Below, piece by piece: positions 1 through 31,551 of a DNA stretch of 40,574 nucleotides. The position numbers were made by a program, and so were the translations under genes. The notes below the pieces were generated by a model, which saw only the letters and a program-made list of their open reading frames with translations, was not told the origin of the DNA and did no database searches. Origin of the DNA: Candidatus Udaeobacter sp. (lineage in GTDB: Bacteria > Verrucomicrobiota > Verrucomicrobiia > Chthoniobacterales > UBA10450); NCBI GenBank assembly GCA_036270025.1, contig DATBDI010000456.1:1-40574 (forward strand). The letters run 5' to 3'. Every line of letters starts with the position of its first letter. Positions within the stretch are counted from its first letter, which is position 1.

Positions 1-534
1 CGCCCCCGCCAGCTCGGCTGCACGTGCGTCGGTATGAATGCGAACACCGCTGAAGTCATAGCCGAAACGCGACTCCATAAACTGTCGCGTTGAGGAGTCT
101 AGTGGCCGGCCGACACTCTGGGTCTGCAAGAACATGGGAGGTGTTTGCAGATTTCGGCGACCGGAGTCTGCGCCTGTCCGTTGTAGCTGCGGTTCCGGCG
201 TTCGCATCACTTGTTCTGCAACCCGGTCCGCCTCTTGTTCGTATGTGTCCCCCGGGCTGTTCACCTGAAGATTGGTCTGAAGGGTCGCTGGTGCGCCTGC
301 ATGGACCGTTATCCGACTGAAGTCGTGGGCGAAGCGGGGCGATGCACTGGCAGTGCCCTTGGATTCGAGTTCGTGTTCGTGACTCGGTGGCGGTCGGTCC
401 CTCGCTTGGTTAGCAATCGAGCGCTGTAACGGATTCCAATGGGGGCGGGGGCCAGAGAGTCTGGGACGGCCCATCACCAGAGGCGAAGGATTTGCCGCCA
501 GAGTTGATTTCGGTTTTTGGGCGAAGGTGCGCAA
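1..534 (-). CDS. DUF4157-type (zincin-like) protein, N-terminal 178 codons only; the gene runs off the left edge. Putative eCIS cargo/toxin
   Basis: Hand translation of the minus strand from TTG at 532-534 gives MRTFAQKPKSTLAANPSPLVMGRPRLSGP...EQEADRVAEQVMRTPEPQ...QSVGRPLDSSTRQFMESRFGYDFSGVRIHTDARAAELAGA, open to base 1. It is missing from the ORF track because there is no stop in the window. Paralog of 943..3306. Confidence 0.8.
   Translation of the reverse strand, partial: MRTFAQKPKSTLAANPSPLVMGRPRLSGPRPHWNPLQRSIANQARDRPPPSHEHELESKGTASASPRFAHDFSRITVHAGAPATLQTNLQVNSPGDTYEQEADRVAEQVMRTPEPQLQRTGADSGRRNLQTPPMFLQTQSVGRPLDSSTRQFMESRFGYDFSGVRIHTDARAAELAGA
189..534 (-). repeat. Direct repeat copy A (346 bp) covering the 5' end of a DUF4157 gene; partner at 2961..3306
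   Basis: Ungapped alignment by eye with 2961..3306. I count 3 mismatches in the last 110 bp. Similarity stops exactly at the TTG start codon. Confidence 0.85.
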
Positions 535-565
535 TGGTCGATCTCCTCGGGTTCGCTGTTTGACT

Positions 566-910
566 TCAAAACATGCCTGTCATGTTCTTCGGCGGTAACA
601 CGGGTTGGAATTCCGTTAGGTCACCATCGTCTTCCAGCCCAAGAAGTAGGCTTTTTCTTACGGACCGAAGGACGTTTGCCGGATTCCCTTTCAATATGAA
701 TCCCATGCCCGCAAATCCCGCGAGCAACCAGATGGACGCAAGTCTGCGGTAATCGGTTTCGAGGTTGTTAAGATGGCGTTCGGCGCTCTCAAGCTCCTTC
801 AGAATGTCCCACGACAATTCGGTATCCAATATGGGGTTGCGCTCGTGATTCTCGACAAGCTCTTGGTCCGGCGGAAGGCTCATAGAATTAAAACATACGG
901 CCAAAAACAC
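566..910 (-). CDS. Hypothetical small protein with one predicted hydrophobic helix (LASIWLLAGFAGMGFIL), between two DUF4157 genes; start uncertain (GTG 910 or ATG 883)
   Basis: Track ORF co-oriented with the operon in an otherwise empty gap. A/T-richer than the core genes. No family recognised and no clear RBS. Confidence 0.35.
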   Translation of the reverse strand: MFLAVCFNSMSLPPDQELVENHERNPILDTELSWDILKELESAERHLNNLETDYRRLASIWLLAGFAGMGFILKGNPANVLRSVRKSLLLGLEDDGDLTEFQPVLPPKNMTGMF

Positions 911-942
911 CGCCTTTTTATATCAGGCAAAGATGTAATGAA

Positions 943-3306
943 CTATTTGGTTGGCGGGCTTGCGGCCGGTTCGTTGAGACCCAGTGTTTTGCGAATAATC
1001 GTTTGTTGATCGGCGGGCAGGGCCTTAAATTCGTCACTAGCCACAAGTGCTTCTTTCTTTTTCGTGAGGGCTTCAACGTCAGCCTTCTTAGTAGCTTTGG
1101 TAATGGCGAGTTGGGCGGCTTGCAAGGCGATCAATGGCCGCTTCCCCATCTGCGCTTCATAGCTGTAACCCGTTTCCATTTCCGCCAGCTTCTTCTTGTC
1201 ACCCAACCCCTTCATCGTCTTTAGAATGTCCGCCATAGGCATACCGCTGACCAAGTGCAGGTAATGGTAGTTGGCATCGCCACTCAGCGAAGCATCCACG
1301 GCTTTGCCATTCGGATCAGTCAACGTCGGTAAACTAGGATAAACGTAATAGCCGGGCTTGCCTTTGGCGGCAATGAACATTTTGTCTGCCAGTTGGGTGT
1401 TTTTCTCGTCGTCGAGTTGGGCGGATGAATAGGGTTGAGGAATGGGGCTGACGGCCGAGATGGCATCCCATGCCACCCCACTGCCCCAATTTTTGAAGTT
1501 CGGGTCTATCGTATCCGCGTTAGAGACAACATAGGCTCCATTCCTAGTCTTCTTCCCGGCTTTCGTTGCCCATGCCATCAAAATATCTTTGGCGCTGGTC
1601 TTGCCATCGAACACCTTGCTCAACCAACCTGTAGCCGGCCACCAATGGGAGATGTGTGCCACCAGCGCAATCAGTTTGTCATCCCATGCATGGGCATATT
1701 TGGGCACTTTGCCGGCCCCACTTTCCATCTTCGTCCATTGCGCATCCACCACTTTCTGGCTGGTTCTATCATTTTCCGCAATGGCAATGAAGACGCCTAG
1801 AAGTCTGGCATCGGATTGAATGAGTCCCAGCGCGTTTAACCCTTTTTCGATGGCTCCGGTTTGCGTATTAACCACCTCAAATCCGCCGTCGTAATAGATG
1901 CCATAGGGTTGGAAAGCAGTCACAATTTCTTGGTCTTTGAAAAGTTGGGTCATAATCTCAGGCAGTTGACCGCCATGTTGACCAAAGCCACGTCCCCAAG
2001 TGAGCATCATTGAGTCATAAGCATTAATCGCCGAAGAGCCACCTTCATGTTTCAGTTCGTTCCAAACCACTTTTTTGATCTGGTCCTCTCGGCTATCGCC
2101 AGCTTTGCTGACGGCCGTTGGATCTTTGGGGCTTATTCCAGCATAAGAGTAGCCATAACGCGACTGCTCGTCTTTAGGCCCCTTATATTTAGAGAGTTTC
2201 AACATTGTCGAATCTACATCCGCCCGGTTCTTCTTAATCGCATCCACAATCTTCTTTTGCTCTCCGGTCAGCGTTCCCTTAAAACCTAGTCCCTGATTCT
2301 TAATCGTGGGGGCCGTCTTCGTTTCGCTGAGGGTGACCTGGAGACCTTCCGTAGCCTTCCGCTCAGCGACCGGCAAAGCGGTGCGCCAAGATGACAAATC
2401 GACATCCCCCTCTTTGCGTTGGATAGCACGGCCTTGCCTACGCGTAATCTGGCTTTGCACGGAACCGCGGCCGTGCAAATCGCCCATCCGCGCTGCATTG
2501 AAACCACAGTTAAGCTCCGCGTCAGGTTCGGATTGGCGGACGCCGTTTCCATCGCCTATTTCGGGAGACTGAATTTTAGGTTCGACCGGGCCACCCTGCT
2601 GGATCGTATGAGTCAGTTCGTGCGCTAGAAGTTGCTTACCTGCGCTCGTCTCCGGCGCGTAGCGCCCCTTCTGAAACACCATGTCTTGCCCTAGTGTGTA
2701 GGCAAGCGCATTTAGTTGACGCGCCGTCTCTGCGGCGTGCGCATCGGTATGCACGCGCACATTACTGAAGTCGTGCCCGAAGCGCGGCTCCATGAAAGCG
2801 CGAGTGACTGGATCGAGCGGTTGGCCAGAGGAGCGCAGTACTTCGTGAACAATGGGCGCCGCCACGTCCCTAGAGCAATTTGCCTCGACACGTTTTGTCT
2901 GCAAGGGCGCGCGACTAGCTTGCGCATCCTTGCACCCGGGGCATGCATCGCGGCTTAACTGCGGTTCAGGCATTCGCATCACTTGTTCCCCAGCCCGGTC
3001 CGCCTCTTGTTCGTATGTGTCCCCCGGGGTGTTCACCTGAAGCTTGGTCTGAAGGATCGCAGGTGCGCCAGCATAGACCGACATCCGGCTGAAGTCGTGG
3101 GCGAAGCGGGGCGATGCACTGGCAGTGGCCTCGGATTCGAGTTCGTGTCCGTGACTGGGTGGCGGTCGCTCCCTCGCTTGGTTAGCAATCGAGCGCCGTA
3201 ACGGATTCCAATGGCGGCCGGGGCCAGAGAGTCTGGGACGGCCCATCACCAGAGGCGAAGGATTTGCCGCCAGAGTTGATTTCGGTTTTTGGGCGAAGGT
3301 GCGCAA
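943..3306 (-). CDS. DUF4157-domain protein (787 aa) with a large uncharacterised Lys-rich C-terminal domain; putative eCIS cargo/toxin
   Basis: Motifs RFAHDFSRMSVY, YEQEADRAGEQVMRM, IVHEVLRSSGQPLDPVTRAFMEPRFGHDFSNVRVHTD and LLAHELTHTIQQ (HExxH). TTG start conserved with the paralog at 534. Confidence 0.85.
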   Translation of the reverse strand: MRTFAQKPKSTLAANPSPLVMGRPRLSGPGRHWNPLRRSIANQARERPPPSHGHELESEATASASPRFAHDFSRMSVYAGAPAILQTKLQVNTPGDTYEQEADRAGEQVMRMPEPQLSRDACPGCKDAQASRAPLQTKRVEANCSRDVAAPIVHEVLRSSGQPLDPVTRAFMEPRFGHDFSNVRVHTDAHAAETARQLNALAYTLGQDMVFQKGRYAPETSAGKQLLAHELTHTIQQGGPVEPKIQSPEIGDGNGVRQSEPDAELNCGFNAARMGDLHGRGSVQSQITRRQGRAIQRKEGDVDLSSWRTALPVAERKATEGLQVTLSETKTAPTIKNQGLGFKGTLTGEQKKIVDAIKKNRADVDSTMLKLSKYKGPKDEQSRYGYSYAGISPKDPTAVSKAGDSREDQIKKVVWNELKHEGGSSAINAYDSMMLTWGRGFGQHGGQLPEIMTQLFKDQEIVTAFQPYGIYYDGGFEVVNTQTGAIEKGLNALGLIQSDARLLGVFIAIAENDRTSQKVVDAQWTKMESGAGKVPKYAHAWDDKLIALVAHISHWWPATGWLSKVFDGKTSAKDILMAWATKAGKKTRNGAYVVSNADTIDPNFKNWGSGVAWDAISAVSPIPQPYSSAQLDDEKNTQLADKMFIAAKGKPGYYVYPSLPTLTDPNGKAVDASLSGDANYHYLHLVSGMPMADILKTMKGLGDKKKLAEMETGYSYEAQMGKRPLIALQAAQLAITKATKKADVEALTKKKEALVASDEFKALPADQQTIIRKTLGLNEPAASPPTK
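2961..3306 (-). repeat. Direct repeat copy B (346 bp); partner at 189..534
   Basis: See copy A. Covers codons 1-115 of the 787-aa gene. Confidence 0.85.
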
Positions 3307-3322
3307 CGTGTTTGGGGTCGCG

Positions 3323-4420
3323 TCACGAATACATCACCGACGTTTTGCCCGACTGACCCGGGTAGTACAGACGAATTCGTACGACGTAAGTGCGATTCTT
3401 GAAGAGCTTGTAACCAATGGTTGCATTCCAATCTTCACCGCTATCGTCGTCGCCGACGAGGAATCGCAACTCACCGTTGATATCTTCGAACAATACAAGC
3501 AGCGTATCCGACGCACCCTTCGTCTCGATCTTGTACTTCCGCGACTGCGTGGGCTTGATCGCGAAATCGACTTGCTGGCCGGCAGCGAGGTCGACGACCA
3601 TAGCCTGGAATGGTTGGAGCGTCGGCAGCGTGGCTTGCAACGGCGGGTACCACTTGAGGGCCCATTCCTTGTCAGGACTCGAGAGCGTTCCCGGTGGGAA
3701 GATGCCGTTAATATCGTATTGTTCGGGCTCATCGATGAGGCCTGGCTCGAACTCATATTCCATGATGGAATCGGGATCCCAAGTCGAACCCTGAACCTGC
3801 TGCGACGTCAGCTTCTGCAAGATGTTGTGAAAGGTCGTATCGTGGTCCCAACTGTTGGGAGGTCTACCGAGCGCGTCGTACACCGCCTGTTCGTGCCACT
3901 TGATTCCCGCGAAGGGATTCTGGTGCTCGTGCTCCATGCCGAGCACGTGTCCGAGTTCATGGAGTGCGGTACCACGACCGTAGGAGGTGGTAAGGTTCCA
4001 GCCGTACACAGTCGTCGGCTCATTCAAGGGGACATCGAGTACTTCGCGGCCGACCGCCGAAGCGGAGCTGCCATCGGCCGTCGAGTAGCCTACCCGGACT
4101 TCAGCTTCGCTGAGTTCATTGACCTCTTGAAACACAAGGCCGATCCCGATCTGCTTCCATTTGGCGAACGCATCACGGACCGCATCCGCCTGAACCTTTG
4201 GAACCGAGAAGCGAGAACTCGCTCCAAAAAAGCAATAGTGCAGCACGGTTCCGTTCACCCATTTCGAGCGCGTGGACAGAATAGCCGCCGCTCGACGCGG
4301 GTCAGCCATCACTGTAGGTGAGAGTTGGGGAACGGGTCGCGGCAGATTCCGGCACAGGGGCTTGGCGATCTGCTTCGATGGTTTGGCTTTGGCGGACTGA
4401 GTGCGATGACGGCGCGGCAT
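3323..4420 (-). CDS. Astacin-like (M12A-type metzincin) zinc metalloprotease with a C-terminal pre-peptidase (PPC)-like beta domain and no signal peptide
   Basis: HELGHVLGMEHEH (HExxHxxGxxHE) plus Met-turn DSIMEY. AAAILSTRSKWVNGTVLHY resembles the astacin mature N-terminus. The C-terminus KYKIETKGASDTLLVLFEDINGELRFLVGDDDSGEDWNATIGYKL..YVVRIRLYY is PPC-like. AAGGAG RBS lies 5 nt upstream of the ATG. Confidence 0.8.
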   Translation of the reverse strand: MPRRHRTQSAKAKPSKQIAKPLCRNLPRPVPQLSPTVMADPRRAAAILSTRSKWVNGTVLHYCFFGASSRFSVPKVQADAVRDAFAKWKQIGIGLVFQEVNELSEAEVRVGYSTADGSSASAVGREVLDVPLNEPTTVYGWNLTTSYGRGTALHELGHVLGMEHEHQNPFAGIKWHEQAVYDALGRPPNSWDHDTTFHNILQKLTSQQVQGSTWDPDSIMEYEFEPGLIDEPEQYDINGIFPPGTLSSPDKEWALKWYPPLQATLPTLQPFQAMVVDLAAGQQVDFAIKPTQSRKYKIETKGASDTLLVLFEDINGELRFLVGDDDSGEDWNATIGYKLFKNRTYVVRIRLYYPGQSGKTSVMYS

Positions 4421-4611
4421 ATGAACTCCTTTGCTGGTTGAGGGTCTTTACGTTTTTGATTTTATGTCAAGGAAACTGGTTGGCTTCTAAGTGGAAATTG
4501 CTTCGTTGATCATGATTTTATGAGCTTGGTCGCCGTCATATTCCGTTTCCTGAAGGATAGGCGGGCGTCGTTGGACCAACGTCAGACCATTATACATGGA
4601 AGAAGAAGGGT

Positions 4612-6048: not shown

Positions 6049-6057
6049 TGTTAGCTC

Positions 6058-17074: not shown

Positions 17075-17381
17075 TCGGTACTCCTGGTATTCCTTCTGGC
17101 AGAGTGATGCGCAGCCGCCGGCCAATCGTCTCTGTGAGTTCGTCGGGGCGCATCGCGCGGTTCGAATCACAAACGCGCCAGAACTGTTCTGGATCGCCCA
17201 GGTAACGCGCGGTGATATTGTCCAGACGATCGCCTTGTACCACCACATGCTCCTGCAACAGCGAGAAGCGCTCAGGCGGCGGGACAAAGCGGCGTCTAAT
17301 ATAGATTAGTGTGCGGCCGTCCTTCGTTTCCAGGGTCGCGGTCTGGATATTGTAATACCGGCTGGTCGGTGGGAAAGACAT
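17067..17381 (-). CDS. LysM-like tail protein (P2 gpX-like)
   Basis: VVQGDRLDNITARYLGDPEQFWRVCDSNRAMRPDEL is a LysM-type motif. AAGGA RBS. Confidence 0.7.
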   Translation of the reverse strand: MSFPPTSRYYNIQTATLETKDGRTLIYIRRRFVPPPERFSLLQEHVVVQGDRLDNITARYLGDPEQFWRVCDSNRAMRPDELTETIGRRLRITLPEGIPGVPNA

Positions 17382-17398: not shown

Positions 17399-18046
17399 CT
17401 ACAGCTTCAATGCCGCGCCGATGTTCTGCGCGCTGTTAAACACGTTGGTGGTGGCCATGATCTCCTTGGCAATGTGATGGACCAGAAAAAGGGCCTCGCC
17501 GGGGCTGGTTACAGATAGGTCCTGGTAACTAAGAACAGTTAGCGATAACTCAACCTTGGCGCGGATCGGATTGAGTAACGGATCGTGTGCCTCCTCCGTG
17601 ATGCTAAGACTGGTGAGACGCACCGGCAGAACGCGCTGCGGCCCCCAGACGAACAGTGTCATGGGCGCTTCGACTGGAATCACCTCCACGGTGCCAATCA
17701 GGGAAAGGATGGTATTGGCAATCACCACCGCGCTCTTTGGGTATAGGATCATTTCCAGCGCGGCCAGCGTCGGATAAATACCCATCGTTGTGGCTAGCGG
17801 ATTGGCTTCCTCGAGCTGATCGGTTGCATCGATCTCAACACTTAGAGTGATCGTCTCCTTCGGCGCCCCGGTGAGCCGAAAAGCCTCGCCGCGGTCGCCT
17901 TCAGCGCTCACCGCGCGCGGCTCTAACTTTCGTGTCATCGTGTCCGGGTTGTATTGGAACACGACCACACTCGCGAGGGGGTTAAACGGGTCGAGCCCGA
18001 TGATGGCGCCTTTTAACAAGCGTGGTGAACCGGGGAAGCTGCTCAT
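17399..18046 (-). CDS. Contractile-injection-system tube-family protein (tube initiator / inner tube-baseplate adaptor, Afp5/7-like)
   Basis: LLKGAIIGLDPFNP..VVFQYNPDTMTRKLEPR...LFVWGPQRVLPVRLTSLSITEEAHDPLLNPIRAKVELSL matches the CIS-tube N-terminal domain pattern. Confidence 0.75.
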   Translation of the reverse strand: MSSFPGSPRLLKGAIIGLDPFNPLASVVVFQYNPDTMTRKLEPRAVSAEGDRGEAFRLTGAPKETITLSVEIDATDQLEEANPLATTMGIYPTLAALEMILYPKSAVVIANTILSLIGTVEVIPVEAPMTLFVWGPQRVLPVRLTSLSITEEAHDPLLNPIRAKVELSLTVLSYQDLSVTSPGEALFLVHHIAKEIMATTNVFNSAQNIGAALKL

Positions 18047-25813: not shown

Positions 25814-27165
25814 GCGATTGTCACCTTTTGGCTGGCGTCGAACGTCGGCGGCGTCACTGTTCTGTCTACCATGGGAAGATCGACTCCATCAACGCGGAGG
25901 CGAACGAGGTACTCGCCCAGTTCCGCCGCAGAAACCGGGAATAGGAACGTCAACTTATCAGAGCTGGTCGGTGGTTGAGCAGGAATCGCCGGTGGCGGAG
26001 GAGGTGCCTCTGGCGCAATCTGTCGGGCCGTTCCGAGCAAGAGAACCACCTGCTGATCAAAGCGCATGTGCGTGGGGTCGACCACGGCCAGTTTCACCTG
26101 AGGCTGGCAGGTCACCGCGAGCGTCACCTTGCCGCCAGCATCGCGTGGAATCGGATTGGCTGGCTCGATTTTCTGGATGCGTGGCGCCAGGGAGAGAGGA
26201 AGTTCGTTGGAGCTCCACGTTTGTGACGTTCCGTTTAGGGTTCGGTTAACAACGACCGCGACGGTGTAGAAGCCGGCTACCCAGGTGGTCTGAGCGGCAA
26301 CATCGTTAGGTAGAGTGACTTTGATGCCATCCTGGATCACCTGCACCGCGGCGGGCGGCAGCAAAATGGCGGGAGTATCGGCCCGCGAGTTGATTAACGT
26401 GAATCGCACCGCTGATAGGTTATTGAGGTTTTGCCCGGCAATCGTTAACTCGTCGCCCAGGAAGGCGCTGCTCTGCCGATTAGGCGGCAGCACCGACGTT
26501 ATAACAGGCAAGCTGTTCCCAGCTACCGCCGAAGGTCCGCTATCGTCCTTGCCGCGCGTCAACACCGGCAATGGCGCCTGCGAGGGTCGGGAGCTTTCGA
26601 TCAGGACAACTTCTACCCGATACGCCGACGAAATTCGGTATTGGGTCTGAAAGGCAGTCCAGAGTTTCGAGATTTCCTCGATCGACAATGGCTGGGGTGA
26701 GATGCGGACATGCTCCACCTGTTCGTACAGGTCATTTCCCCCAAGCGCAGCCCTGATGGCGGAGTGGTCGAGGACCGCGTTGTCATGAAAGATGCGCATG
26801 GCCTGCCCGAGGAGGATGTGCGCGGCAGTTTCATCATCGTTGTGGCCGTACGCACTGAGCAAATAATGGAGCGTCAACGCCACCGGCGGCTGCGCTATTT
26901 CCCCGGGGCGGGCCTTGCGCGGCATGTCCATGTTGCAAAACGCGGCGTTGGGAGCTGTCTGGTAGAGATAGATATTGACCTGATTAGCGGTCTCGGCGGA
27001 CGGGCGCGCCTTGTCGGGTGTTTTGGTCGTGACCGAGACGCTGCCCAAGCCTAATGAGCTCGGGATATCCGCTGGCAGGTTCGCCGTGAGTCCGCCGCTC
27101 GCGCTGTCCAGCATACTTCTGAGAGTGGAGGTGACTGCTGCTATTGCCAGTGAGTTGCTCATCAT
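25810..27165 (-). CDS. DUF4255-domain protein (Afp16/Pvc16-like tail terminator/cap)
   Basis: N-terminus MMSNSLAIAAVTSTLRSMLDSA...NIYLYQ...LTLHYLLSAYG is typical of DUF4255. 4-nt overlaps on both sides. Confidence 0.8.
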   Translation of the reverse strand: MMSNSLAIAAVTSTLRSMLDSASGGLTANLPADIPSSLGLGSVSVTTKTPDKARPSAETANQVNIYLYQTAPNAAFCNMDMPRKARPGEIAQPPVALTLHYLLSAYGHNDDETAAHILLGQAMRIFHDNAVLDHSAIRAALGGNDLYEQVEHVRISPQPLSIEEISKLWTAFQTQYRISSAYRVEVVLIESSRPSQAPLPVLTRGKDDSGPSAVAGNSLPVITSVLPPNRQSSAFLGDELTIAGQNLNNLSAVRFTLINSRADTPAILLPPAAVQVIQDGIKVTLPNDVAAQTTWVAGFYTVAVVVNRTLNGTSQTWSSNELPLSLAPRIQKIEPANPIPRDAGGKVTLAVTCQPQVKLAVVDPTHMRFDQQVVLLLGTARQIAPEAPPPPPAIPAQPPTSSDKLTFLFPVSAAELGEYLVRLRVDGVDLPMVDRTVTPPTFDASQKVTIA

Positions 27166-28232
27166 CGACCTCCTGCAGCGCGCTGGCGCAGATATTCGTC
27201 TAAGCTCATCCTTGGCACGGGGGCGGTCTGCGGCCGCGCCTGGACCTGCGGCGGCACAATGGCCCGCACCTCCACGCGGCCGATGGTCACATGAATGGAC
27301 TGTGCTTCGGTCGTAATTTGCTTGTTAGGACTTGGCAAGACACGTGGCAAGGCGATGATCGACGCGGGGACAATCGGCGCGGTCGGCGTAGCGAATGCTG
27401 GTTGTAACCGGCCTGTTCGGGCTTCATTCCCCGGAGCAGGTTCGTCGTGCATGTGAGGTTCGCGAACGATCGTCTTAGTAATTTCTTTCTCGATGACGGC
27501 GGGGGGCGCGTCCGAGCGTTTTCCCACCGGCTTCACCGGAGCGGACAAACTCGCGACGGGCGCGGCTGGCAGCGATTCAGGCTGCTCGGTACGGATGTGC
27601 TTAGCGTGCGTCGACGCTAGCGGGGCGGCGCCGATCTCGCGCATGGAATGCTCAGGGTCGCCCAGCGCGACCGACGGCGGCTCCGGTCGAGTCGCCCCGA
27701 CCAAATGCACGGGCGCGCTTTCGTCAAGTCTGTCATTGGCGTTACGCGGTTTTGAACCGGGGACTTCGTCGGCAGTAAGCGGTGCGACTCCCACGAGTTT
27801 TCGTGTCACCGCGCTTGGAAGCGTTTCGGCCGGGGTACTCGGCGACGGTTGGGCATGTGAAAGCTGTTTTACCGCAATCGGGTCGCCTGCGACACGGCCT
27901 TGCGTTTTTTCCGAAGGAGCGCCGTTATCATCAACGACCGGTCGCACTCGGGGTGGCTCGGTGCGGGTTACGGCGGGGCCCTGCGGTAAGAGCGGCTCAA
28001 TGGCCATTACACCCTGCTCTACCTTGCCACGCCAGAGCGACTGCAATTGCCCAAGCCGCTCCGCTGTTCGGTTTTCCACCTCGAGCTTGACTATTGGTAG
28101 CTCCGGCGTAGCGCTGCCACGAAAGATCGCTCCGCCGTTTACGGGCGGCTCGAAAATCGAGTGCACCATGGGACGCACCGCGTCAGTCGCGGAGAGGGAA
28201 CGCTTTACGAGATTGCCGAGGAAATCGCTCAT
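27162..28232 (-). CDS. Pro/Ala-rich hypothetical protein with short ordered termini; candidate tail-length determinant (Afp14 analogue) by position only
   Basis: N-terminus MSDFLGNLVKRSLSATDAVRPMVHSIFEP and C-terminus IHVTIGRVEVRAIVPP...MSLDEYLRQR flank about 280 aa of low-complexity P/A/S/T sequence. Confidence 0.55.
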   Translation of the reverse strand: MSDFLGNLVKRSLSATDAVRPMVHSIFEPPVNGGAIFRGSATPELPIVKLEVENRTAERLGQLQSLWRGKVEQGVMAIEPLLPQGPAVTRTEPPRVRPVVDDNGAPSEKTQGRVAGDPIAVKQLSHAQPSPSTPAETLPSAVTRKLVGVAPLTADEVPGSKPRNANDRLDESAPVHLVGATRPEPPSVALGDPEHSMREIGAAPLASTHAKHIRTEQPESLPAAPVASLSAPVKPVGKRSDAPPAVIEKEITKTIVREPHMHDEPAPGNEARTGRLQPAFATPTAPIVPASIIALPRVLPSPNKQITTEAQSIHVTIGRVEVRAIVPPQVQARPQTAPVPRMSLDEYLRQRAAGGR

Positions 28233-28963
28233 GGCTCGATCATCTCCAGGTACGCTTGACGTCGATACGGAGTGAGCGCGAGAACATCGGCCTCGCTCCA
28301 GCCGTACGCTGACGCAAGCGCATGCACTTCACGTAGGATGCGGCTGGCCCACGCGTGAATTTCCGTCCAAAAATACGAAACGATATCCAGTGGTGTCTGC
28401 CACGCGTGATGGCACTGCGGACAAGCCAACGCGACCTGCACATCGGCCTGCGGGTCGGCCTCGGCCATGCCTTGCGCGATTGCCGCCCCCACGTCAGCCG
28501 GCAATTCAGCGGTCGCAATCTCCTTGTCCGCGCACTGAGCCGTGAGCACACAGCGTTGCAGCAATTGTTGCCTGACCGTCTCGCCATCCATTGCGGGATC
28601 AAGAGTTGCCAGGTCGAGACTATTGGGCAGACGGAATTGCACTATGTAATCCGTGTGCGCAACCTCAAGAATTTGGTCCAGATCTTCCCAAGGTGGGGAA
28701 CGTATATCCGCTGCGTTGACCAAAAGCTCCAAGTGCGCTGCGCAAGCCGGACATGTCGCGATGCTCGCGAGCTGTGATCCAAAAGTTTGTTCCCGTAACG
28801 CCAGCAAAAGCATATCGCGCTGGCCGACGCTGAATTGCGCGAGTCGCTCGATCGGCGTCTCCGCGCAGCCCATGGCCAGGAGCGTGAGCGCGCGTTGCGC
28901 CAGCGACTGGCTGAGGCCGCGCTCCCACGCGGTCAAAAGGTCCGCCGCTGATAACGCGCGCAT
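28229..28963 (-). CDS. Conserved hypothetical eCIS protein with CPAC...CPQC pairs (possible zinc ribbon); assembly factor by position
   Basis: Track ORF directly after the tube gene. C-terminus AYGWSEADVLALTPYRRQAYLEMI. Confidence 0.6.
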   Translation of the reverse strand: MRALSAADLLTAWERGLSQSLAQRALTLLAMGCAETPIERLAQFSVGQRDMLLLALREQTFGSQLASIATCPACAAHLELLVNAADIRSPPWEDLDQILEVAHTDYIVQFRLPNSLDLATLDPAMDGETVRQQLLQRCVLTAQCADKEIATAELPADVGAAIAQGMAEADPQADVQVALACPQCHHAWQTPLDIVSYFWTEIHAWASRILREVHALASAYGWSEADVLALTPYRRQAYLEMIEP

Positions 28964-28972
28964 GGCGGATGG

Positions 28973-29503
28973 CTATGCTGGCTCGGTGAAGGTCGGCTCG
29001 GTCGGTTCGGGCACTTCGTAATCGCGCTCCCAGCCTTCGTTCTCCAGTTTGATGTGCTGGATAGCTACCGCGTTGGCATTGGCATCAAGGTCCGAAAGGG
29101 ACTGAAACTCTGAAACCCAGCAGCGATAAACCGTATATGCGATCACCTTCTGCCCCGCCTCGTTATAGACCTCTATGATGATGTCCTTGCGGAAGTCCTT
29201 GAGCGAGACCTCCTGGCCAAGTGCGTTGCCATAGTTCCAAACTTTGTTGGCCCACTGCTCAAAATCCTTGTCGTGGGTCACGCCCCGGTCGAGTGTGATT
29301 GCGTCGTATTCTGTGCGGCCTGGAGATTTGCGGCTACTGCTGGGGTCGCCGCCCTCGCGGTGCTTCACGACCTCGGTCGTGCGTTTGAGACCACTTACCT
29401 TGCTGATCCCTGCCACTGGGGTCGTGCTACCGACGAAGAAGACTCGAAACTTGAAGTTCTTATACGGATCGAAACGTGTGGTATTGACGGTGAATTGAGC
29501 CAT
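28973..29503 (-). CDS. Contractile tail tube protein (Afp1/Pvc1-like; T4 gp19 / TIGR02241-like)
   Basis: FDPYKNFKFRVFFVGSTTPVAGISKVSGLKRTTEVVKHREGGDPSSSRKSPGRTEYDAITLDRGVTHDKDFEQWANKV. Confidence 0.92.
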   Translation of the reverse strand: MAQFTVNTTRFDPYKNFKFRVFFVGSTTPVAGISKVSGLKRTTEVVKHREGGDPSSSRKSPGRTEYDAITLDRGVTHDKDFEQWANKVWNYGNALGQEVSLKDFRKDIIIEVYNEAGQKVIAYTVYRCWVSEFQSLSDLDANANAVAIQHIKLENEGWERDYEVPEPTEPTFTEPA

Positions 29504-29518
29504 GGAATTTTCCTCGGT

Positions 29519-31207
29519 TTAGGTTTCAATTTGTCCGGCCATTTGCTGGAGCTTGATAATGACGAACTCGGCCGGCTTCAGCGGCGCAAAGCCAACGATG
29601 ATATTGACGATCCCGAGATTAATGTCGTTCTGGGTCGTGCTTTCTTTGTCGCATTTGACGAAGTAGGCATCCTTGGGCGTCTGGCCTTGAAACGCACCCT
29701 GGCGGAAGAGGGTGTGCATAAACGCACCCACGTTGAGGCGAATCTGTGCCCAAAGAGGTTCGTCGTTGGGTTCGAACACAACCCACTGCGTGCCGCGATA
29801 GAGGCTTTCTTCGATGAACAGTGCCGTGCGGCGGACCGGGACGTATTTCCACTCGGAGGCGAGGCGATCGTCGCCTTGGAGGGTACGCGCGCCCCAAACG
29901 ATACGGCCAGCCGGAACCATGGTGCGCAAACAATTAACGCCGAGCGGATTCAGCTCACCGTTTTCGGGATCAGTCAAATCCACGCTCAGAGCGGGGACGT
30001 TGTTCAAGACGGCGTCCAACCCGGCGGGTGCTTTCCACACTCCGCGTTGCGTATCAGTGCGAGCAAAAATACCGGCGACTGCACCACAGGGAGCGAAGTA
30101 TTCAAACTGATTGTCCCGCAAAATATTGCGCTGCCTGAGACGTGGAAAATAGAGGGCTCCATTCTTGCTGGTTGTTCCCACACCCGCTGTGATTCCGGCC
30201 TTCGCGTCATCCTTTGTGGTCCAATCAGCAGGCGAATCAACGAGCAACATGGCTCGGCGTTTCTCGCAATAAGCTGCGGCCGCCGAAGTGAGATCCTGAT
30301 CGATATTCCCGGTCGCGAGATAAGGAGGGATGCAGAGAATGTTGAAGAGGTCGGCTTGCTCAAAAGCGTAGAGACCCTTCTTGTCTTGTTCGGCATTATT
30401 CGGTGCGAAGTCGTCTGCCAGAGTCAGTGCATCTCCGTCCGAAGCAGCGACCGCATCTTGTTTAGTTTTCAGGGTCGCTTTAGCTGCAGTTACAGCTTGG
30501 GTAAGGGTGTCGATCTCGTTTTGGGGCTTGCCGGCCGCAATCGCGTCGTCGAGTGCCTTTTGTTTAATCGCCACGTCCGCTTCGGCCGAGGTGATGTCAT
30601 CCTTAGCTTCGGAAATGGCAGGCGGGTTTGCAGGATCCAGCGTGCCATCCCAACGAACGAGCGTCGATTGGGCCTGCAGGACTTTGTCGATTCTTCGGGG
30701 ACTTTCTTTGACGGAAACATTACGGAAAACCTCGCTGCGTCCGCCCGGCTTTCCTTCAGAGACGGTCAGGTTAAAGAGATCAGCTTTTGCGAGTCCCATG
30801 CTCAGCGCCACTGCCTCGGAAACATCTGTGTCGACCGCGCCGCGCAAGTACTCTCCCCAGGAACCTTCATATGCAGCTTCAAGCTTGACTCCACCAAATG
30901 CTAGCTTGGCCTTGCCGGGCTTGGCGTTGTTTCCCGCCTCAGCGTGATACAGCCGCACGATAACTGCCTGGCTGCCGCCGTTCAGGTAAAAGTCGCGAAC
31001 GGCGTATCCCAGCGTGCTTTCAACCCACAGCCCGCCGAAGATTCGCTCAAAATCTCCGTAGCTGTTGATCGTCGTGGCTTTGTTCACTGGGCCACGCATC
31101 GCGCGTCCAACAAAAGCGGTGATAGAGGTCGCGACGCCGGTGATGGTGCGCACGCCACTGGGGATTTCTTCAATATAGACACCGGGATAGGTCAACGTGG
31201 CAGGCAT
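29519..31207 (-). CDS. Contractile tail sheath protein (Afp2/3-like)
   Basis: MPATLTYPGVYIEEIPSGVRTITGVATSITAFVGRA...GVNCLR..GRIVWGARTL. AAAGGA RBS. Confidence 0.95.
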   Translation of the reverse strand: MPATLTYPGVYIEEIPSGVRTITGVATSITAFVGRAMRGPVNKATTINSYGDFERIFGGLWVESTLGYAVRDFYLNGGSQAVIVRLYHAEAGNNAKPGKAKLAFGGVKLEAAYEGSWGEYLRGAVDTDVSEAVALSMGLAKADLFNLTVSEGKPGGRSEVFRNVSVKESPRRIDKVLQAQSTLVRWDGTLDPANPPAISEAKDDITSAEADVAIKQKALDDAIAAGKPQNEIDTLTQAVTAAKATLKTKQDAVAASDGDALTLADDFAPNNAEQDKKGLYAFEQADLFNILCIPPYLATGNIDQDLTSAAAAYCEKRRAMLLVDSPADWTTKDDAKAGITAGVGTTSKNGALYFPRLRQRNILRDNQFEYFAPCGAVAGIFARTDTQRGVWKAPAGLDAVLNNVPALSVDLTDPENGELNPLGVNCLRTMVPAGRIVWGARTLQGDDRLASEWKYVPVRRTALFIEESLYRGTQWVVFEPNDEPLWAQIRLNVGAFMHTLFRQGAFQGQTPKDAYFVKCDKESTTQNDINLGIVNIIVGFAPLKPAEFVIIKLQQMAGQIET

Positions 31208-31226
31208 GATGGTCCTTTCTTATGAG

Positions 31227-31508
31227 TTAGATGGTCTTACGGGGTTGGGGCGGTTGCTGAAGCGTCGCGAGATATTGCGGGGAGACGTGGTAAAATACTT
31301 TGCCGTCCGCAGATCGCTTTTGTTCGAGAAAACCTTGTTCGACGAGTTGCGAGACGGTCTTCGCAATTTTCGGCGTCCAGTTGCGAATGCAGGCGTCGAG
31401 TACCCACCACTGAAGGATGTCTTCGATCGTGCCCTGCGCACCCGGCCGCTTGGCCAGATAATCGAGAATTTCTGGCGCTGGAGATGGAAGCGAAGGGTCG
31501 ATAAGCAC
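31227..31508 (-). CDS. Hypothetical 93-aa protein, first ORF downstream of the sigma-54 promoter (GTG start)
   Basis: Track ORF, co-oriented, ends 19 nt before the sheath ATG. No family recognised. The RBS is not convincing. Confidence 0.45.
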   Translation of the reverse strand: MLIDPSLPSPAPEILDYLAKRPGAQGTIEDILQWWVLDACIRNWTPKIAKTVSQLVEQGFLEQKRSADGKVFYHVSPQYLATLQQPPQPRKTI

Positions 31509-31537
31509 GCATTAGGGACGTCAGTCGTCCTTTCCTA

Positions 31538-31551
31538 GCAATCGACGTACC
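31538..31551 (-). promoter_or_regulatory. Sigma-54 (-24/-12) promoter for the eCIS operon
   Basis: The minus strand reads AGGTACGTCGATTGCT against consensus TGGCACG-N4-TTGCW, with correct GG..GC spacing. It lies about 30 nt upstream of the first operon ORF, next to a sigma-54 activator gene. Confidence 0.65.

What the first reader, a model, noticed from the sequence alone, without database searches (positions are those of the whole stretch)
1..31551. Complete phage-tail-like extracellular contractile injection system (eCIS) operon with non-archetypal gene order
At least 27 co-oriented genes, many with 1-8 nt overlaps, encode the full set of particle parts. These are sheath, tube, DUF4255 terminator-like protein, AAA+ ATPase, tube initiator, LysM/gpX-like protein, gpD-like hub, gpV-like spike, PAAR-like tip, gp25 and two baseplate-J-like proteins. 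A gpI-like protein is also present. No capsid, portal, terminase, integrase or lysis genes are visible, and there are no TssB/C, TssM/L/J or ClpV genes. The DUF4255 plus dedicated ATPase pairing is the established eCIS hallmark. Unlike Afp/PVC, where these two genes and the cargo sit at the 3' end, they follow the tube here. Cargo genes are also inserted in the middle of the structural operon as well as at its end.
Basis: partly seen in the sequence, partly recalled or inferred. Interest (0 to 1): 0.8.

Follow-up and report, generated by a model that had tools for sequence, protein, structure and literature searches.

The report
Ordinary lineage-II contractile injection system cluster
This is a real and complete gene cluster for a phage-tail-like protein-injection machine, but its layout is the standard one of a very large, already catalogued family found in soil and water microbes, so it is a new member and not a new kind.

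Summary
Twenty-seven co-oriented minus-strand genes (31508 to 1) encode sheath, tube, DUF4255 cap, AAA+ ATPase, Afp7-like tube initiator, LysM/gpX-like protein, gp27-like hub, gpV spike, PAAR-like tip, gp25 and two Afp11/baseplate-J paralogues. A DUF6519 fibre-anchor protein and five DUF4157 cargo genes complete the set. No head, terminase, lysis or T6SS membrane-complex genes are present.

The order sheath, tube, gp26-like, Pro-rich protein, cap, ATPase, [DUF4157 cargo slot], baseplate differs from Afp/PVC. However, it is conserved in about 50 genome loci from more than 10 phyla and in 31 metagenome loci. Published surveys already describe subtype-specific gene orders, split afp8, duplicated afp11 and mid-cluster DUF4157 cargo.

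It is best filed as a dbeCIS lineage II (IIa/IIc-like) cluster, probably from a Verrucomicrobiota genome. Whether particles act outside the cell is untested, because its closest solved relatives act from inside the cell.

Additions:
- A sigma-54 activator sits upstream, with two palindromic sites and a -24/-12 promoter.
- A T4 gp26-like assembly protein follows the tube.
- Two cargo islands carry distinct N-terminal leaders.

Interest is low to moderate.

The parts
31868..33304 (-). Sigma-54 enhancer-binding protein (NtrC-type AAA+ activator), candidate regulator of the operon
   Evidence: PF00158 at 1.8e-63, AAA_lid_14 at 1.5e-21 and a weak receiver-domain hit. Homologues lie next to the sheath in 13 related genome loci.
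31773..31786 (.). Upstream palindrome 1 (TGACAAATTTGTCC), candidate activator-binding site
   Evidence: The pattern GGACAANNTTGTCC with up to 1 mismatch occurs only twice in the window, against 0.10 expected. Both copies lie in this intergenic region. It is conserved in L007.
31703..31716 (.). Upstream palindrome 2 (GGACAATTTTGTCC), candidate activator-binding site
   Evidence: Exact palindrome. Conserved in L007, which has two copies, and in L047.
31537..31552 (-). Sigma-54 type -24/-12 promoter-like element AGGTACGTCGATTGCT, 29 nt before the first gene
   Evidence: It is an island of conservation in the alignment with L007, which reads AGGCACGTCGATTGCT. No sigma-70-like site lies on this strand.
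31227..31508 (-). Small conserved protein (93 aa) preceding the sheath; function unknown
   Evidence: Called as a gene on an independent contig (L001). It is 80% identical in L007. No family hit.
29519..31207 (-). Contractile sheath (Afp2/Cis2-like), 562 aa
   Evidence: PF04984 and PF17482. PDB sequence hits: Streptomyces Cis2 8BKY at 1.2e-72, haloarchaeal Cis2 9EZM at 4.4e-71, Pvc2/Afp3 near 1e-44, R-pyocin at 7e-8 and T4 gp18 at 5e-5.
28973..29503 (-). Inner tube (Afp1/Cis1-like), 176 aa
   Evidence: PF06841 at 2.5e-44. Best PDB hits are the tCIS All3324 and the AlgoCIS tube.
28229..28963 (-). T4 gp26-like baseplate-hub assembly protein, 244 aa, with four invariant Cys (C71, C74, C181, C184)
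   Evidence: PF12322 at 2.7e-13 and phrog_150 'baseplate hub' at 9e-10. AF2 pLDDT is 88.7. There are 48 BFVD matches at E<=1e-3 to T4-like gp26/hub-assembly proteins, with TM about 0.55-0.62. No PDB fold match. Present after the tube in 59 loci. The four invariant Cys were read from an alignment of 29 of them.
27162..28232 (-). Pro/Ala-rich protein (356 aa) with conserved N- and C-terminal motifs and a variable centre; candidate length ruler or tape-measure substitute (inference)
   Evidence: No family hit. Homologues occupy the same position in 17 loci, of which 16 of 253-526 aa were aligned. Conserved ends are MSDFL..NL..R and VTIGRVEVRA...MSLDDYL.
25810..27165 (-). Cap/terminator (Afp16/Pvc16-like DUF4255) with C-terminal Ig-like (TIG) extension, 451 aa
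   Evidence: Pvc16_N at 2.2e-48 and TIG at 7e-5. The family profile hits DUF4255 chain 9r9n_B at 4.8e-5 and Afp16 at 0.053.
23630..25813 (-). AAA+ ATPase (Afp15/Alg15-like), 727 aa; inferred cargo loader
   Evidence: AAA at 1.1e-24 and WHD at 2.4e-20. 69% identical in Verrucomicrobiae MAGs. The role is inferred from Alg15 work (bioRxiv 10.64898/2026.05.27.728243).
23325..23633 (-). Small conserved protein (102 aa) that follows the ATPase in most relatives; function unknown
   Evidence: tblastn matches in 43 loci at the same position. No family hit.
22859..23341 (-). 160-aa protein with CxxC...CxxC zinc-ribbon-like motifs; accessory, not conserved in relatives
   Evidence: Only faint DZR hits. 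No match in related loci.
21960..22862 (-). Cargo-like protein (300 aa): type A leader, truncated DUF4157 and a Cys-rich C-terminal domain
   Evidence: eCIS_core partial hit at 7.3e-4, residues 84-111. Its leader is 65% identical to that of 18651-20795.
20728..21840 (-). Cargo protein (370 aa): type A leader, DUF4157 and DUF6973
   Evidence: eCIS_core at 6.6e-31 and DUF6973 at 1.3e-18. HExxH at residue 168.
18651..20795 (-). Cargo protein (up to 714 aa; the true start is probably the ATG at 20723): type A leader, DUF4157 and an unknown C-terminal domain with a second HExxH
   Evidence: eCIS_core at 8.8e-31. HExxH at residues 169 and 608. The C-terminal domain has no family hit.
18104..18643 (-). 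179-aa protein after the large cargo gene; possible immunity or accessory protein (speculative)
   Evidence: No family hit. Not found in related loci.
17399..18046 (-). Tube initiator / tube-baseplate adaptor (Afp7/Cis7-like), 215 aa
   Evidence: CIS_tube PF19266 at 1.4e-5. The family profile hits the Afp7-type chain 9rce_H at 1.9e-5, All3321 at 0.078 and Afp7 at 0.39. Found in 52 loci.
17067..17381 (-). LysM/gpX-like small baseplate protein, 104 aa
   Evidence: Phage_tail_X at 0.013 and phrog_46 'baseplate hub' at 8e-6. It is 50-78% identical in 53 loci. PGAP names the homologue 'tail protein X' in L165.
15947..17074 (-). gp27/gpD-like hub (N-terminal half of a split Afp8/VgrG), 375 aa. The longest ORF, reaching 17287, is over-extended
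   Evidence: The profile hits VgrG 9rce_F at 5.9e-12, Alg8 7aef_q at 4.5e-6 and Cis8 All3320 at 1.8e-3. The homologue in L163 is called at 376 aa.
15411..15950 (-). gp5/gpV-like OB-fold spike, 179 aa
   Evidence: Phage_base_V at 2.9e-20.
15074..15397 (-). PAAR-like spike tip (DUF4280-like)
   Evidence: DUF4280 at 3.3e-5, below cutoff. Up to 89% identical in relatives.
14707..15066 (-). gp25/Afp9-like sheath initiator
   Evidence: GPW_gp25 at 2.5e-15. Best PDB hit is Streptomyces 9GTP_V at 5.5e-9.
11924..14707 (-). Afp11/gp6-like baseplate wedge protein, copy 1 (927 aa)
   Evidence: TIGR02243 at 325.7 bits against a cutoff of 155.8. phrog_219 at 1e-18. 9GTP_1K at 1.3e-9.
8256..11927 (-). Afp11/gp6-like baseplate wedge protein, copy 2 (1223 aa)
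   Evidence: Baseplate_J at 6.9e-10. TIGR02243 at 268.4 bits.
6058..8259 (-). Conserved 733-aa baseplate-periphery protein with a central beta-helix. It occupies the position of the Afp12/gpI-type fibre adaptor; homology is not shown
   Evidence: 7543 homologues, none with a Pfam domain. 7 of 22 give weak Phage_Mu_Gp48 hits. AF2 pLDDT is 56 overall, but residues 260-600 are confident. Pectin-methylesterase-like beta-helix matches at 2e-4.
4612..6048 (-). DUF6519 protein (478 aa), the published eBAP5 fibre/baseplate-attachment domain; last structural gene
   Evidence: PF20129 at 2.2e-90. eBAP5 is defined in PMC12923769. It ends the conserved module in 31 metagenome loci.
3323..4420 (-). Metzincin-type metalloprotease (365 aa) without DUF4157; candidate cargo in the variable 3' island
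   Evidence: Peptidase_M10 at 1.4e-7 and Astacin at 5.5e-5. HELGHVLGMEH motif. Absent at this position in the close relative L163.
943..3306 (-). Cargo protein (787 aa): type B leader, DUF4157 and an unknown C-terminal domain
   Evidence: eCIS_core at 9.7e-33. The C-terminal domain has no significant family hit.
566..910 (-). 114-aa protein after the cargo gene; possible immunity or accessory protein (speculative)
   Evidence: No family hit.
1..534 (-). 5' part of a further DUF4157 cargo gene with a type B leader, cut by the contig end
   Evidence: eCIS_core at 3.3e-13. 69% identical over 195 aa to the N-terminus of 943-3306. The window is the whole contig.

Best explanation
The window carries a complete operon for a phage-tail-derived contractile injection system of the Afp/PVC-related superfamily. 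It belongs to dbeCIS lineage II and has the features published for subtypes IIa/IIc. The contig is probably from a soil Verrucomicrobiota genome.

The cluster has two conserved structural modules with a cargo slot between them.
- Module 1: sheath, tube, a T4 gp26-like hub-assembly protein, a Pro-rich protein with conserved ends (possibly the length ruler), the DUF4255 cap and the AAA+ ATPase.
- Module 2: an Afp7-like tube initiator, a LysM/gpX-like protein, a gp27-like hub, a gpV spike, a PAAR-like tip, gp25, two Afp11 paralogues, a 733-aa beta-helix protein and a DUF6519 fibre-anchor protein.

Three DUF4157 proteins sit between the modules. A second, variable island after DUF6519 holds two more DUF4157 proteins and a metzincin. 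By analogy with AlgoCIS Cgo1/Cgo2, these are cargo. Their disordered N-terminal leaders would direct them into the tube lumen with the help of the ATPase, and sheath contraction would expel them.

Transcription is probably driven by a sigma-54 promoter activated by the adjacent enhancer-binding protein.

Shown here: gene content, homologies, synteny and the conserved promoter elements. Inferred: cargo loading, the ruler role, regulation, and release of free particles that act outside the cell.
For: - Family and structure-sequence matches exist for every core part.
- The sheath scores far better against CIS sheaths (1e-72 to 1e-36) than against R-pyocin (7e-8) or T4 (5e-5).
- The best phage sheath is 32% identical over 75% of the query. 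Relatives in CIS loci are 65-88% identical.
- Both modules are syntenic in about 50 genome loci and 31 metagenome loci.
- Two TIGR02243 paralogues and a split gp27/gp5 spike match Chen 2019's description of subtypes IIa/IIc.
- DUF4157 proteins are demonstrated tube-lumen cargo in AlgoCIS (PMC8894135). Their N-terminal leader and Alg15 are needed for loading.
- The gp26-like fold is predicted with high confidence.
- The sigma-54 elements are conserved islands in otherwise diverged intergenic DNA. Such motifs are enriched in loci with the activator gene: 7 of 13 against 8 of 44, Fisher p=0.016.
- No TM-anchor candidate was found, and a DUF6519 fibre-anchor gene is present.
Against: - No experimental data exist for this locus.
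- The subtype was not fixed by phylogeny, because no reference set was at hand.
- The solved systems with the most similar sheaths are not extracellular. Streptomyces CIS is cytoplasmic (PMC10066040) and the H. borinquense CIS is membrane-bound (PMC11566945).
- DUF6519 is related to the crown domain of the thylakoid-anchored tCIS, so its presence does not prove target binding outside the cell.
- The DUF6519 protein here is short (478 aa) and has no obvious receptor-binding extension.
- No lysis or release genes are present.
- The CIS_tube and PAAR-like Pfam hits fall just under the curated cutoffs.
- The ruler role of the Pro-rich protein rests on position and architecture only.
Confidence: 0.85

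Rival explanations
1. The same machine works from inside the producer and is not released. It would be either anchored to the cytoplasmic membrane and firing outward on cell contact (T6SS-like, as in Halogeometricum borinquense), or free or envelope-attached in the cytoplasm and mediating self-lysis, development or eDNA release (as in Streptomyces coelicolor and S. davawensis).
For: - The two best solved sheath matches are exactly these systems: 8BKY at 1.2e-72 and 9EZM at 4.4e-71.
- The gp25 and Afp11 copies also match the Streptomyces 9GTP chains best.
- The S. davawensis group is described as spread across distant phyla, with a DUF4157 effector immediately upstream of the baseplate genes. 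That is the slot used here.
- No lysis cassette is present in the window.
- DUF6519 is related to the tCIS crown domain.
Against: - No homologue or analogue of a membrane anchor was seen. No protein in the cluster has a convincing TM helix. This contrasts with the 6-TM Hbor_38620 and the TM-bearing Streptomyces effectors.
- The gene order differs from pHBOR03.
- Afp8 is split and Afp11 is duplicated, unlike IId Streptomyces clusters.
- A DUF6519 gene is present, which the published catalogue treats as a tail-fibre marker.
- An anchor could still be encoded elsewhere in the genome.
Confidence: 0.3
2. The gene order is a novel, non-archetypal architecture that marks a new kind of eCIS.
For: The order does differ from Afp/PVC, where afp15, afp16 and the toxins are 3'-terminal (established knowledge; Geller 2021). 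No structure of a particle from a cluster with exactly this co-linear order was found among PDB sequence hits.
Against: - The same order occurs in 51 of 52 informative genome loci, with DUF4157 genes in the same slot in 38 of 51.
- The baseplate module is identical in 31 metagenome loci.
- More than 8000 sheath homologues exist at E<=1e-30.
- Carriers include cultured strains sequenced years ago, such as Calothrix PCC 7103, Leptolyngbya PCC 7375 and Nitrosospira briensis.
- Subtype-specific orders and the variable ATPase/DUF4255 position are already published.
- A toxin from a Udaeobacter cluster, flanked by DUF4157 genes, was tested in 2021. A Udaeobacter sheath is 68% identical to this one (P0118), although that locus was not shown to be the same cluster.
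Confidence: 0.03
3. It is a defective myophage tail region or an R-type tailocin and not a CIS of the Afp/PVC superfamily.
For: The parts are phage-tail homologues. The gp26-like protein and the sheath have distant relatives in Bacillus phages BCD7 and SP-15.
Against: - The DUF4255 cap, dedicated AAA+ ATPase and DUF4157 cargo are present, none of which is typical of tailocins or phages.
- No head, terminase, portal, integrase, holin or endolysin family was found in the window or in the flank of the close relative L163.
- Sheath similarity to pyocin and T4 is marginal.
- No phage record covers 80% or more of the sheath.
- No tRNA or integrase marks an island edge.
Confidence: 0.02

Closest known systems
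dbeCIS lineage II eCIS-like loci, subtypes IIa/IIc (Chen et al. 2019, PMC6899500; also the PLTS of Sarris et al. 2014 and eCIStem of Geller et al. 2021)
   Same: It has the core backbone Afp1/5, 2, 7, 8, 9, 11, 15 and 16. It also has two afp11 copies, afp8 split into gp27-like and gp5-like ORFs, a PAAR-like gene, no recognisable afp14, extra subtype-specific genes and DUF4157-tagged toxins. [quoted passage not shown]
   Different: Nothing essential. Which of IIa or IIc applies was not settled, because the paper's figures and supplements were not available and no Afp11 tree was built. Sigma-54 control is not among the regulators listed by Geller.
Streptomyces davawensis CIS group with the Tme effector (Nagakubo et al. 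2024, PMC11126660), and the S. europaeiscabiei plasmid cluster NZ_CP109155.1 seen here
   Same: The group is described as shared by distant phyla, with conserved synteny and a DUF4157-N-terminal effector immediately upstream of the baseplate genes. The S. europaeiscabiei plasmid has the same two modules gene for gene, including the 244-aa gp26-like gene, tail protein X and DUF6519. Its sheath is 47% identical.
   Different: Membership of the S. davawensis group was not tested, because no sequence was at hand. In the plasmid the two modules are convergent, not co-linear. Tme is a protein of about 2000 aa with TM helices and a nuclease domain. The cargo here is smaller, has no TM helices and has unknown C-terminal domains. 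The S. davawensis system acts on the producer's own envelope.
Halogeometricum borinquense CIS / archaeal T6SS (clade IIa; PMC11566945; sheath 9EZM)
   Same: [quoted passage not shown] Sheath hit at 4.4e-71.
   Different: The order is baseplate, cargo, sheath/tube, with the cap and ATPase on the opposite strand. The sheath is only 38% identical. It has a 6-TM anchor gene that has no counterpart here. No gp26-like or DUF6519 gene is annotated there.
Streptomyces coelicolor CIS-Sc (subtype IId; PMC10066040; 8BKY, 9GTP)
   Same: It gives the best solved-structure sequence matches for sheath, gp25 and Afp11. It also lacks a typical Afp14.
   Different: IId has a single contiguous afp8 and a single afp11, TM-bearing effectors and a cytoplasmic cell-death role. 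It has no conventional fibre gene.
AlgoCIS of Algoriphagus machipongonensis (subtype Ib; PMC8894135 and bioRxiv 10.64898/2026.05.27.728243)
   Same: It provides the mechanistic model for the cargo. Cgo1 and Cgo2 have a disordered N-terminal leader, DUF4157 and a variable C-terminal domain, fill the tube lumen and need the AAA+ Alg15 for loading. Its tube is among the best PDB matches.
   Different: It belongs to a different lineage (Ib), has a long single Afp11, an Alg14 tape measure, a cap adaptor Alg16B and a different fibre. Sheath similarity is limited to the C-terminal domains (5.8e-38).
Afp (Serratia entomophila) and PVC (Photorhabdus), subtype Ia archetypes
   Same: They use the same machine principle and the same core parts. 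The DUF4255 plus ATPase pairing is a shared hallmark.
   Different: They have three sheath paralogues, contiguous Afp8, a single Afp11, Afp12/13 fibres and an Afp14 tape measure. Afp15/16 and the toxins are at the 3' end, and their cargo lacks DUF4157.

Membership tests
Afp/PVC-related CIS superfamily (eCIS sensu Chen 2019 / Geller 2021) | Sheath (Afp2/3/4) and tube (Afp1/5) homologues | tested here: met
   PF04984 and PF17482 for the sheath; PF06841 at 2.5e-44 for the tube. PDB hits go to CIS sheaths and tubes.
Afp/PVC-related CIS superfamily (eCIS sensu Chen 2019 / Geller 2021) | DUF4255 cap (Afp16) adjacent to a dedicated AAA+ ATPase (Afp15) | tested here: met
   Pvc16_N at 2.2e-48 and AAA at 1.1e-24 in adjacent genes with a 4-nt overlap. 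The cap profile hits DUF4255 and Afp16 chains.
Afp/PVC-related CIS superfamily (eCIS sensu Chen 2019 / Geller 2021) | Baseplate core: Afp7-like initiator, Afp8 spike, gp25 (Afp9) and baseplate J (Afp11) | tested here: met
   The Afp7-like assignment is the weakest (CIS_tube at 25.3 bits against a cutoff of 27; profile hit at 1.9e-5).
Afp/PVC-related CIS superfamily (eCIS sensu Chen 2019 / Geller 2021) | No capsid, portal or terminase genes and no T6SS membrane complex, TssB/C or ClpV nearby | tested here: met
   No such family was found in any ORF of the 40.6-kb contig or in the 10-kb downstream flank of the close relative L163. The left edge is cut by the contig end.
Afp/PVC-related CIS superfamily (eCIS sensu Chen 2019 / Geller 2021) | Particles are released and act extracellularly on target cells via fibres | not testable with these tools
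   Only indirect evidence exists: a DUF6519/eBAP5 gene is present, no TM anchor was found and no lysis genes are present. The closest solved relatives are not extracellular.
dbeCIS lineage II, subtype IIa or IIc | Two afp11 copies | tested here: met
   Both 11924-14707 and 8256-11927 pass TIGR02243.
dbeCIS lineage II, subtype IIa or IIc | afp8 split into separate gp27-like and gp5-like ORFs; PAAR-like afp10 present; afp14 not recognisable | tested here: met
   The gp27-like ORF is supported by profile hits and the gpV OB ORF and DUF4280-like ORF. No tape-measure family hit was found anywhere.
dbeCIS lineage II, subtype IIa or IIc | Placement in the IIa or IIc clade of the Afp11 tree | not tested
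   No reference Afp11 set was available, because the supplements of PMC6899500 are not held. The sheath is 38% identical to the clade IIa H. borinquense Cis2.
Archaeal/T6SS-mode CIS (H. borinquense type) | Conserved multi-TM membrane-anchor gene (Hbor_38620-like) linked to the cluster | tested here: not met
   The hydropathy scan found no convincing TM protein in the cluster. Only the window was searched, so an unlinked anchor cannot be excluded.
Streptomyces CIS-Sc type (subtype IId) | Single contiguous afp8 and single afp11; TM-bearing effectors | tested here: not met
   Afp8 is split and afp11 is duplicated. The cargo has no TM segments.
R-type tailocin / myophage tail | Sheath and tube nest with phage or pyocin proteins; no DUF4255 plus ATPase pair; lysis cassette present | tested here: not met
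   Pyocin sheath at 7e-8 and T4 at 5e-5, against 1e-72 for CIS. The best phage is 32% identical. The cap and ATPase are present, and no lysis genes were found.

The most novel reading that the evidence does not exclude
This cluster may represent a super-abundant but experimentally almost untouched CIS clade with three features not yet described for eCIS.
- Transcription would depend on sigma-54, through a dedicated enhancer-binding protein with two palindromic upstream sites.
- The missing Afp14 tape measure would be replaced by a T4 gp26-like zinc-binding assembly protein plus a Pro-rich ruler with conserved ends.
- Two cargo islands would use two unrelated N-terminal leader families: a CxCGG...CxxC knuckle leader mid-operon, and a leader of about 140 aa in the 3' island. 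That would imply two loading routes or two loading sites in one particle.
Probability: 0.3. Interest if true: 0.45.

Novelty: new member of a known kind. Interest (0 to 1): 0.27.

Why it matters
As a locus it adds little. It is one more metagenomic member of a lineage that public surveys already hold in the thousands.

Its value is as a clean, intact, single-operon example of the commonest environmental CIS architecture, for which no particle structure or mode of action is known. It carries at least six candidate effectors, and most of their C-terminal domains match no known family.

If the side observations hold, they would give testable handles on how lineage II systems are switched on, sized and loaded. 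These are the sigma-54 control, the gp26-like plus Pro-rich protein pair in place of a tape measure, and the two leader families. That is relevant to efforts to engineer such particles for protein delivery.

Tried and rejected
- Concatenating several proteins into one PDB sequence query lost sensitivity. It gave nothing for the cap, the gp26-like protein or the tube initiator. Family profiles worked better.
- The supplements of Chen 2019 are not held, so the IIa versus IIc call could not be made from published locus lists.
- One literature search with generic terms returned only mitochondrial-genome papers.
- The eCIS metagenome-landscape paper had nothing on lineage II gene order.
It was redone with database homologues.
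- The 733-aa protein model was poor outside residues 260-600 (pLDDT 56). Fold search showed only a generic beta-helix, the profile against PDB gave chance hits and Pfam on 22 homologues gave no Tail_P2_I. 'gpI-like' therefore stays unproven.
- tblastn of the gp26-like protein against 50,697 phage records found nothing. Only fold comparison linked it to T4 gp26-type proteins.
- Pfam on the isolated cargo C-terminal domains and on the small ORFs after them gave nothing significant.
- Exact look-up of the 787-aa cargo protein found no other contig. The window is the whole contig, so the sequence left of base 1 cannot be read. The close relative L163 shows a different 3' island.
- The prophage/tailocin reading and the novel-architecture reading were considered and rejected (see rivals).
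- A generic sigma-54 consensus scan of the whole window was not enriched overall (26 hits against 21 expected). The promoter call rests on position, conservation and the adjacent activator, not on the scan.

Full report
**What is there**

The window is a whole metagenome contig of 40,574 bp. All genes of interest lie on the minus strand. From 31508 down to base 1 there are 27 co-oriented ORFs, and ten junctions overlap by 1-8 nt.

Pfam, PHROG and NCBIfam scans identify the following:
- a sheath (29519-31207);
- a gp19-type tube (28973-29503);
- a Pvc16_N/DUF4255 cap with Ig-like extension (25810-27165);
- an AAA+ ATPase (23630-25813);
- a CIS_tube protein (17399-18046);
- a gpV OB spike (15411-15950);
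- a DUF4280/PAAR-like protein (15074-15397);
- gp25 (14707-15066);
- two large TIGR02243/baseplate-J proteins (11924-14707 and 8256-11927);
- a DUF6519 protein (4612-6048);
- five eCIS_core/DUF4157 proteins (21960-22862 partial, 20728-21840, 18651-20795, 943-3306, and 1-534 cut by the contig end).

A 104-aa ORF at 17067-17381 is hidden under an over-extended neighbouring ORF. It is 50-78% identical in 53 related loci and has weak Phage_tail_X and baseplate-hub hits, so the LysM/gpX-like gene is real. The following gene really starts near 17074 and encodes 375 aa. Its family profile matches the gp27-like part of VgrG/Alg8/Cis8 chains at 5.9e-12 to 1.8e-3, which confirms the gpD-like hub. The CIS_tube protein's profile hits Afp7-type chains, and the cap profile hits DUF4255 and Afp16 chains.

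The 'gpI-like' label for 6058-8259 could not be confirmed. None of 7543 homologues carries a Pfam domain. Only weak Mu Gp48 hits appear, in 7 of 22 homologues. The model shows just a central beta-helix.

**Not a phage, tailocin or canonical T6SS**

No head, portal, terminase, integrase, lysis, TssB/C, TssJLM or ClpV family occurs anywhere on the contig. The right flank encodes ordinary cellular proteins: a sigma-54 activator, YetF, an SDR, DUF2383, a FAD/Rieske oxidoreductase and topoisomerase IB.

The sheath matches CIS sheaths far better than R-pyocin or T4:

| Solved sheath | E-value |
|---|---|
| Streptomyces Cis2 (8BKY) | 1e-72 |
| H. borinquense Cis2 (9EZM) | 4e-71 |
| Pvc2 / Afp3 | about 1e-44 |
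| R-pyocin | 7e-8 |
| T4 gp18 | 5e-5 |

The best phage sheath among 50,697 records is 32% identical and covers 75% of the query.

**Is the gene order unusual?**

It is unusual relative to Afp/PVC. In absolute terms it is not.

I fetched 80 genome loci through the ATPase and mapped all window proteins onto them. The order sheath, tube, 244-aa protein, (356-aa protein), cap, ATPase, (102-aa protein), DUF4157 genes, tube initiator, gpX-like, gp27-like, spike, PAAR, gp25, J, J, 733-aa protein recurs across many groups. These are Verrucomicrobiota, Deltaproteobacteria, Nitrosospira/Nitrosomonas, Xanthomonadales, Acidobacteriota, Nitrospirota, Nostoc/Calothrix/Leptolyngbya, Planctomycetota, Chloroflexota, Bacteroidota, Actinomycetota, and methanogen and Bathyarchaeia MAGs.

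Of 52 loci spanning both the ATPase and the tube initiator, 51 have them co-oriented in this order. In 38 of those 51, one to five DUF4157 genes lie between them. A second set of 80 metagenome loci, fetched through DUF6519, shows the baseplate module unchanged in all 31 loci of 9 kb or more.

Each conserved protein has thousands of homologues. The sheath has more than 8000 at E<=1e-30, 65-71% identical across phyla. The 733-aa protein has 7543 and the 244-aa protein has 3601.

The literature already covers this:
- Sarris 2014 noted that the ATPase/DUF4255 pair sits at variable positions.
- Chen 2019 defined lineage II subtypes with subtype-specific gene order, split afp8, two afp11 copies in IIa and IIc, no recognisable afp14 and extra conserved genes of unknown function.
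- Geller 2021 established DUF4157 as a toxin marker and tested a toxin from a Udaeobacter cluster flanked by DUF4157 genes.
- Nagakubo 2024 described a CIS group shared by distant phyla, with a DUF4157 effector immediately upstream of the baseplate genes.

**Comparison with annotated relatives**

pHBOR03 of H. borinquense has the same part types in a different arrangement, with the cap and ATPase on the other strand. A Streptomyces europaeiscabiei plasmid (sheath 47% identical) has exactly the two modules seen here, gene for gene, but convergent. The unit of conservation is therefore two modules. Most members, including this one, have them co-linear with a cargo slot between.

Downstream of DUF6519 the relatives usually end. 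The closest relative has a 94% identical 733-aa protein on a 369-kb contig. There, a PLD-like protein and then cellular genes replace the metzincin and DUF4157 genes found here. A few other loci also carry DUF4157 genes there (L094, L150 and L152). The 3' island is thus a variable second cargo site.

**How it most likely works**

By homology, gp25, the two Afp11 paralogues, the hub, the spike, the PAAR-like tip and the Afp7-like initiator form a baseplate. From it the tube and sheath polymerise until capped by the DUF4255 protein.

The 244-aa protein after the tube folds with high confidence (pLDDT 88.7). It matches predicted T4-type gp26 hub-assembly proteins, with 48 hits at E<=1e-3 and TM about 0.55-0.62. 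It matches no solved structure. It has four invariant cysteines. I infer that it is an assembly factor.

The next protein has conserved termini and a variable-length Pro-rich centre. From its position, and from the absence of any Afp14 homologue, I suggest it is the length ruler. This is an inference only.

The DUF4157 proteins have the AlgoCIS Cgo architecture of leader, DUF4157 and variable C-terminal domain. In AlgoCIS these proteins fill the tube lumen, and loading needs the leader and the AAA+ Alg15. I adopt that model here.

The leaders fall into two families:
- Type A is a CxCGG...CxxC knuckle leader shared by the three mid-operon genes (65% identity).
- Type B is a leader of about 140 aa shared by the two 3' genes.

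Both motif types recur in other loci. Apart from the DUF6973 domain of the 370-aa cargo, the cargo C-terminal domains match no family.

**Regulation**

The gene upstream (31868-33304) is a sigma-54 enhancer-binding protein. The 360-bp intergenic region holds the only two copies in the window of the palindrome GGACAA-N2-TTGTCC, against 0.10 expected. It also holds a -24/-12-like element, AGGTACGTCGATTGCT, 29 nt before the first gene. No sigma-70-like site lies on that strand.

In the alignment with the nearest genome relative, a Verrucomicrobiae MAG (L007), these three elements are islands of identity in diverged DNA. Similar -24/-12 motifs occur upstream of the sheath in 7 of 13 loci that have the activator gene and in 8 of 44 that lack it (p=0.016). 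I found no paper linking eCIS with sigma-54 among the hits examined.

**What remains open**

- Extracellular action is unproven. For it: a DUF6519 gene, which is the published eBAP5 fibre-anchor domain, and no TM-anchor candidate in the cluster. Against it: the most similar solved systems work from inside the cell, DUF6519 is related to the crown of the thylakoid-anchored tCIS, the protein here is short, and no release genes are present.
- The subtype (IIa versus IIc) was not fixed by phylogeny.
- The host is inferred only from the best matches: uncultured Verrucomicrobiae MAGs and named Chthoniobacterales and Opitutaceae proteins.

**Verdict**

It is a new member of a known kind. Modest extra interest comes from the sigma-54 control region, the gp26-like plus Pro-rich pair, and the uncharacterised cargo.

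Noticed in passing
window 31509-33304: A classic sigma-54 control region precedes the operon. An enhancer-binding protein gene is followed by two GGACAA-N2-TTGTCC palindromes (31703-31716 and 31773-31786) and a -24/-12-like element (31537-31552, minus strand). All three are conserved in the Verrucomicrobiae locus L007 while the surrounding DNA has diverged. This type of regulator is not listed among known eCIS regulators in Geller 2021.
   Followed up: yes
window 17067-17381 (minus) and 15947-17287: A conserved 104-aa LysM/gpX-like gene is hidden because the longest-ORF rule extends the downstream hub gene by 71 junk codons across it. The true hub start is near 17074, giving 375 aa and an 8-nt overlap.
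   Followed up: yes
window 28229-28963 (minus): The gene after the tube is a T4 gp26-type baseplate-hub assembly protein with four invariant cysteines. The predicted fold is confident, has many phage relatives in BFVD and matches no solved structure. Bacillus phage BCD7 supplies both the best phage sheath match and a good match to this protein.
   Followed up: partly
window 27162-28232 (minus): A Pro/Ala-rich protein has conserved termini (MSDFL..NL..R and VTIGRVEVRA..MSLDDYL) and a centre that varies from 253 to 526 aa among relatives. It is a possible length ruler in a lineage that lacks Afp14. The region also has the highest GC content of the window (0.60-0.62 against about 0.56).
   Followed up: partly
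window 18651-22862 and 1-3306 (minus): There are two families of cargo N-terminal leaders. A Cys-knuckle leader (LQRKCACGGTPGPTGECxxCRKKRLQR) is shared by the three mid-operon DUF4157 genes. A leader of about 140 aa (MRTFAQKPKSTLAANPSPL...) is shared by the two 3' genes and contains a duplicated DUF4157-like PRFAHDFS motif.
   Followed up: partly
window 21960-22862 (minus): One cargo-like gene has only the first third of DUF4157, without the HExxH motif, fused to a C-terminal domain very rich in Cys, Glu and Asp with no family match.
   Followed up: no
window 1-4420; locus L163 12212-19160: The region after DUF6519 is a variable island. This window has a metzincin and two DUF4157 genes. The closest relative (94% identical neighbouring gene) has a PLD-like protein and a DUF6519 fragment there instead. 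Most relatives have nothing.
   Followed up: partly
loci L110, L112, L117, L151: In several related metagenome loci a sigma-54 activator gene sits on the opposite strand directly after DUF6519, not before the sheath. The activator is thus linked to the cluster at either end.
   Followed up: no
window 18104-18643 and 566-910 (minus): Small ORFs with no family match and no homologue in related loci follow the two largest cargo genes. Their position is that of immunity genes in the haloarchaeal system, which would hint at antibacterial cargo.
   Followed up: no
sheath homologues P0002-P0120: The sheath is 65-71% identical between Verrucomicrobiota, Acidobacteriota and Planctomycetota. This is far more conserved than expected for vertical descent and is consistent with the horizontal spread already proposed in the literature.
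   Followed up: no
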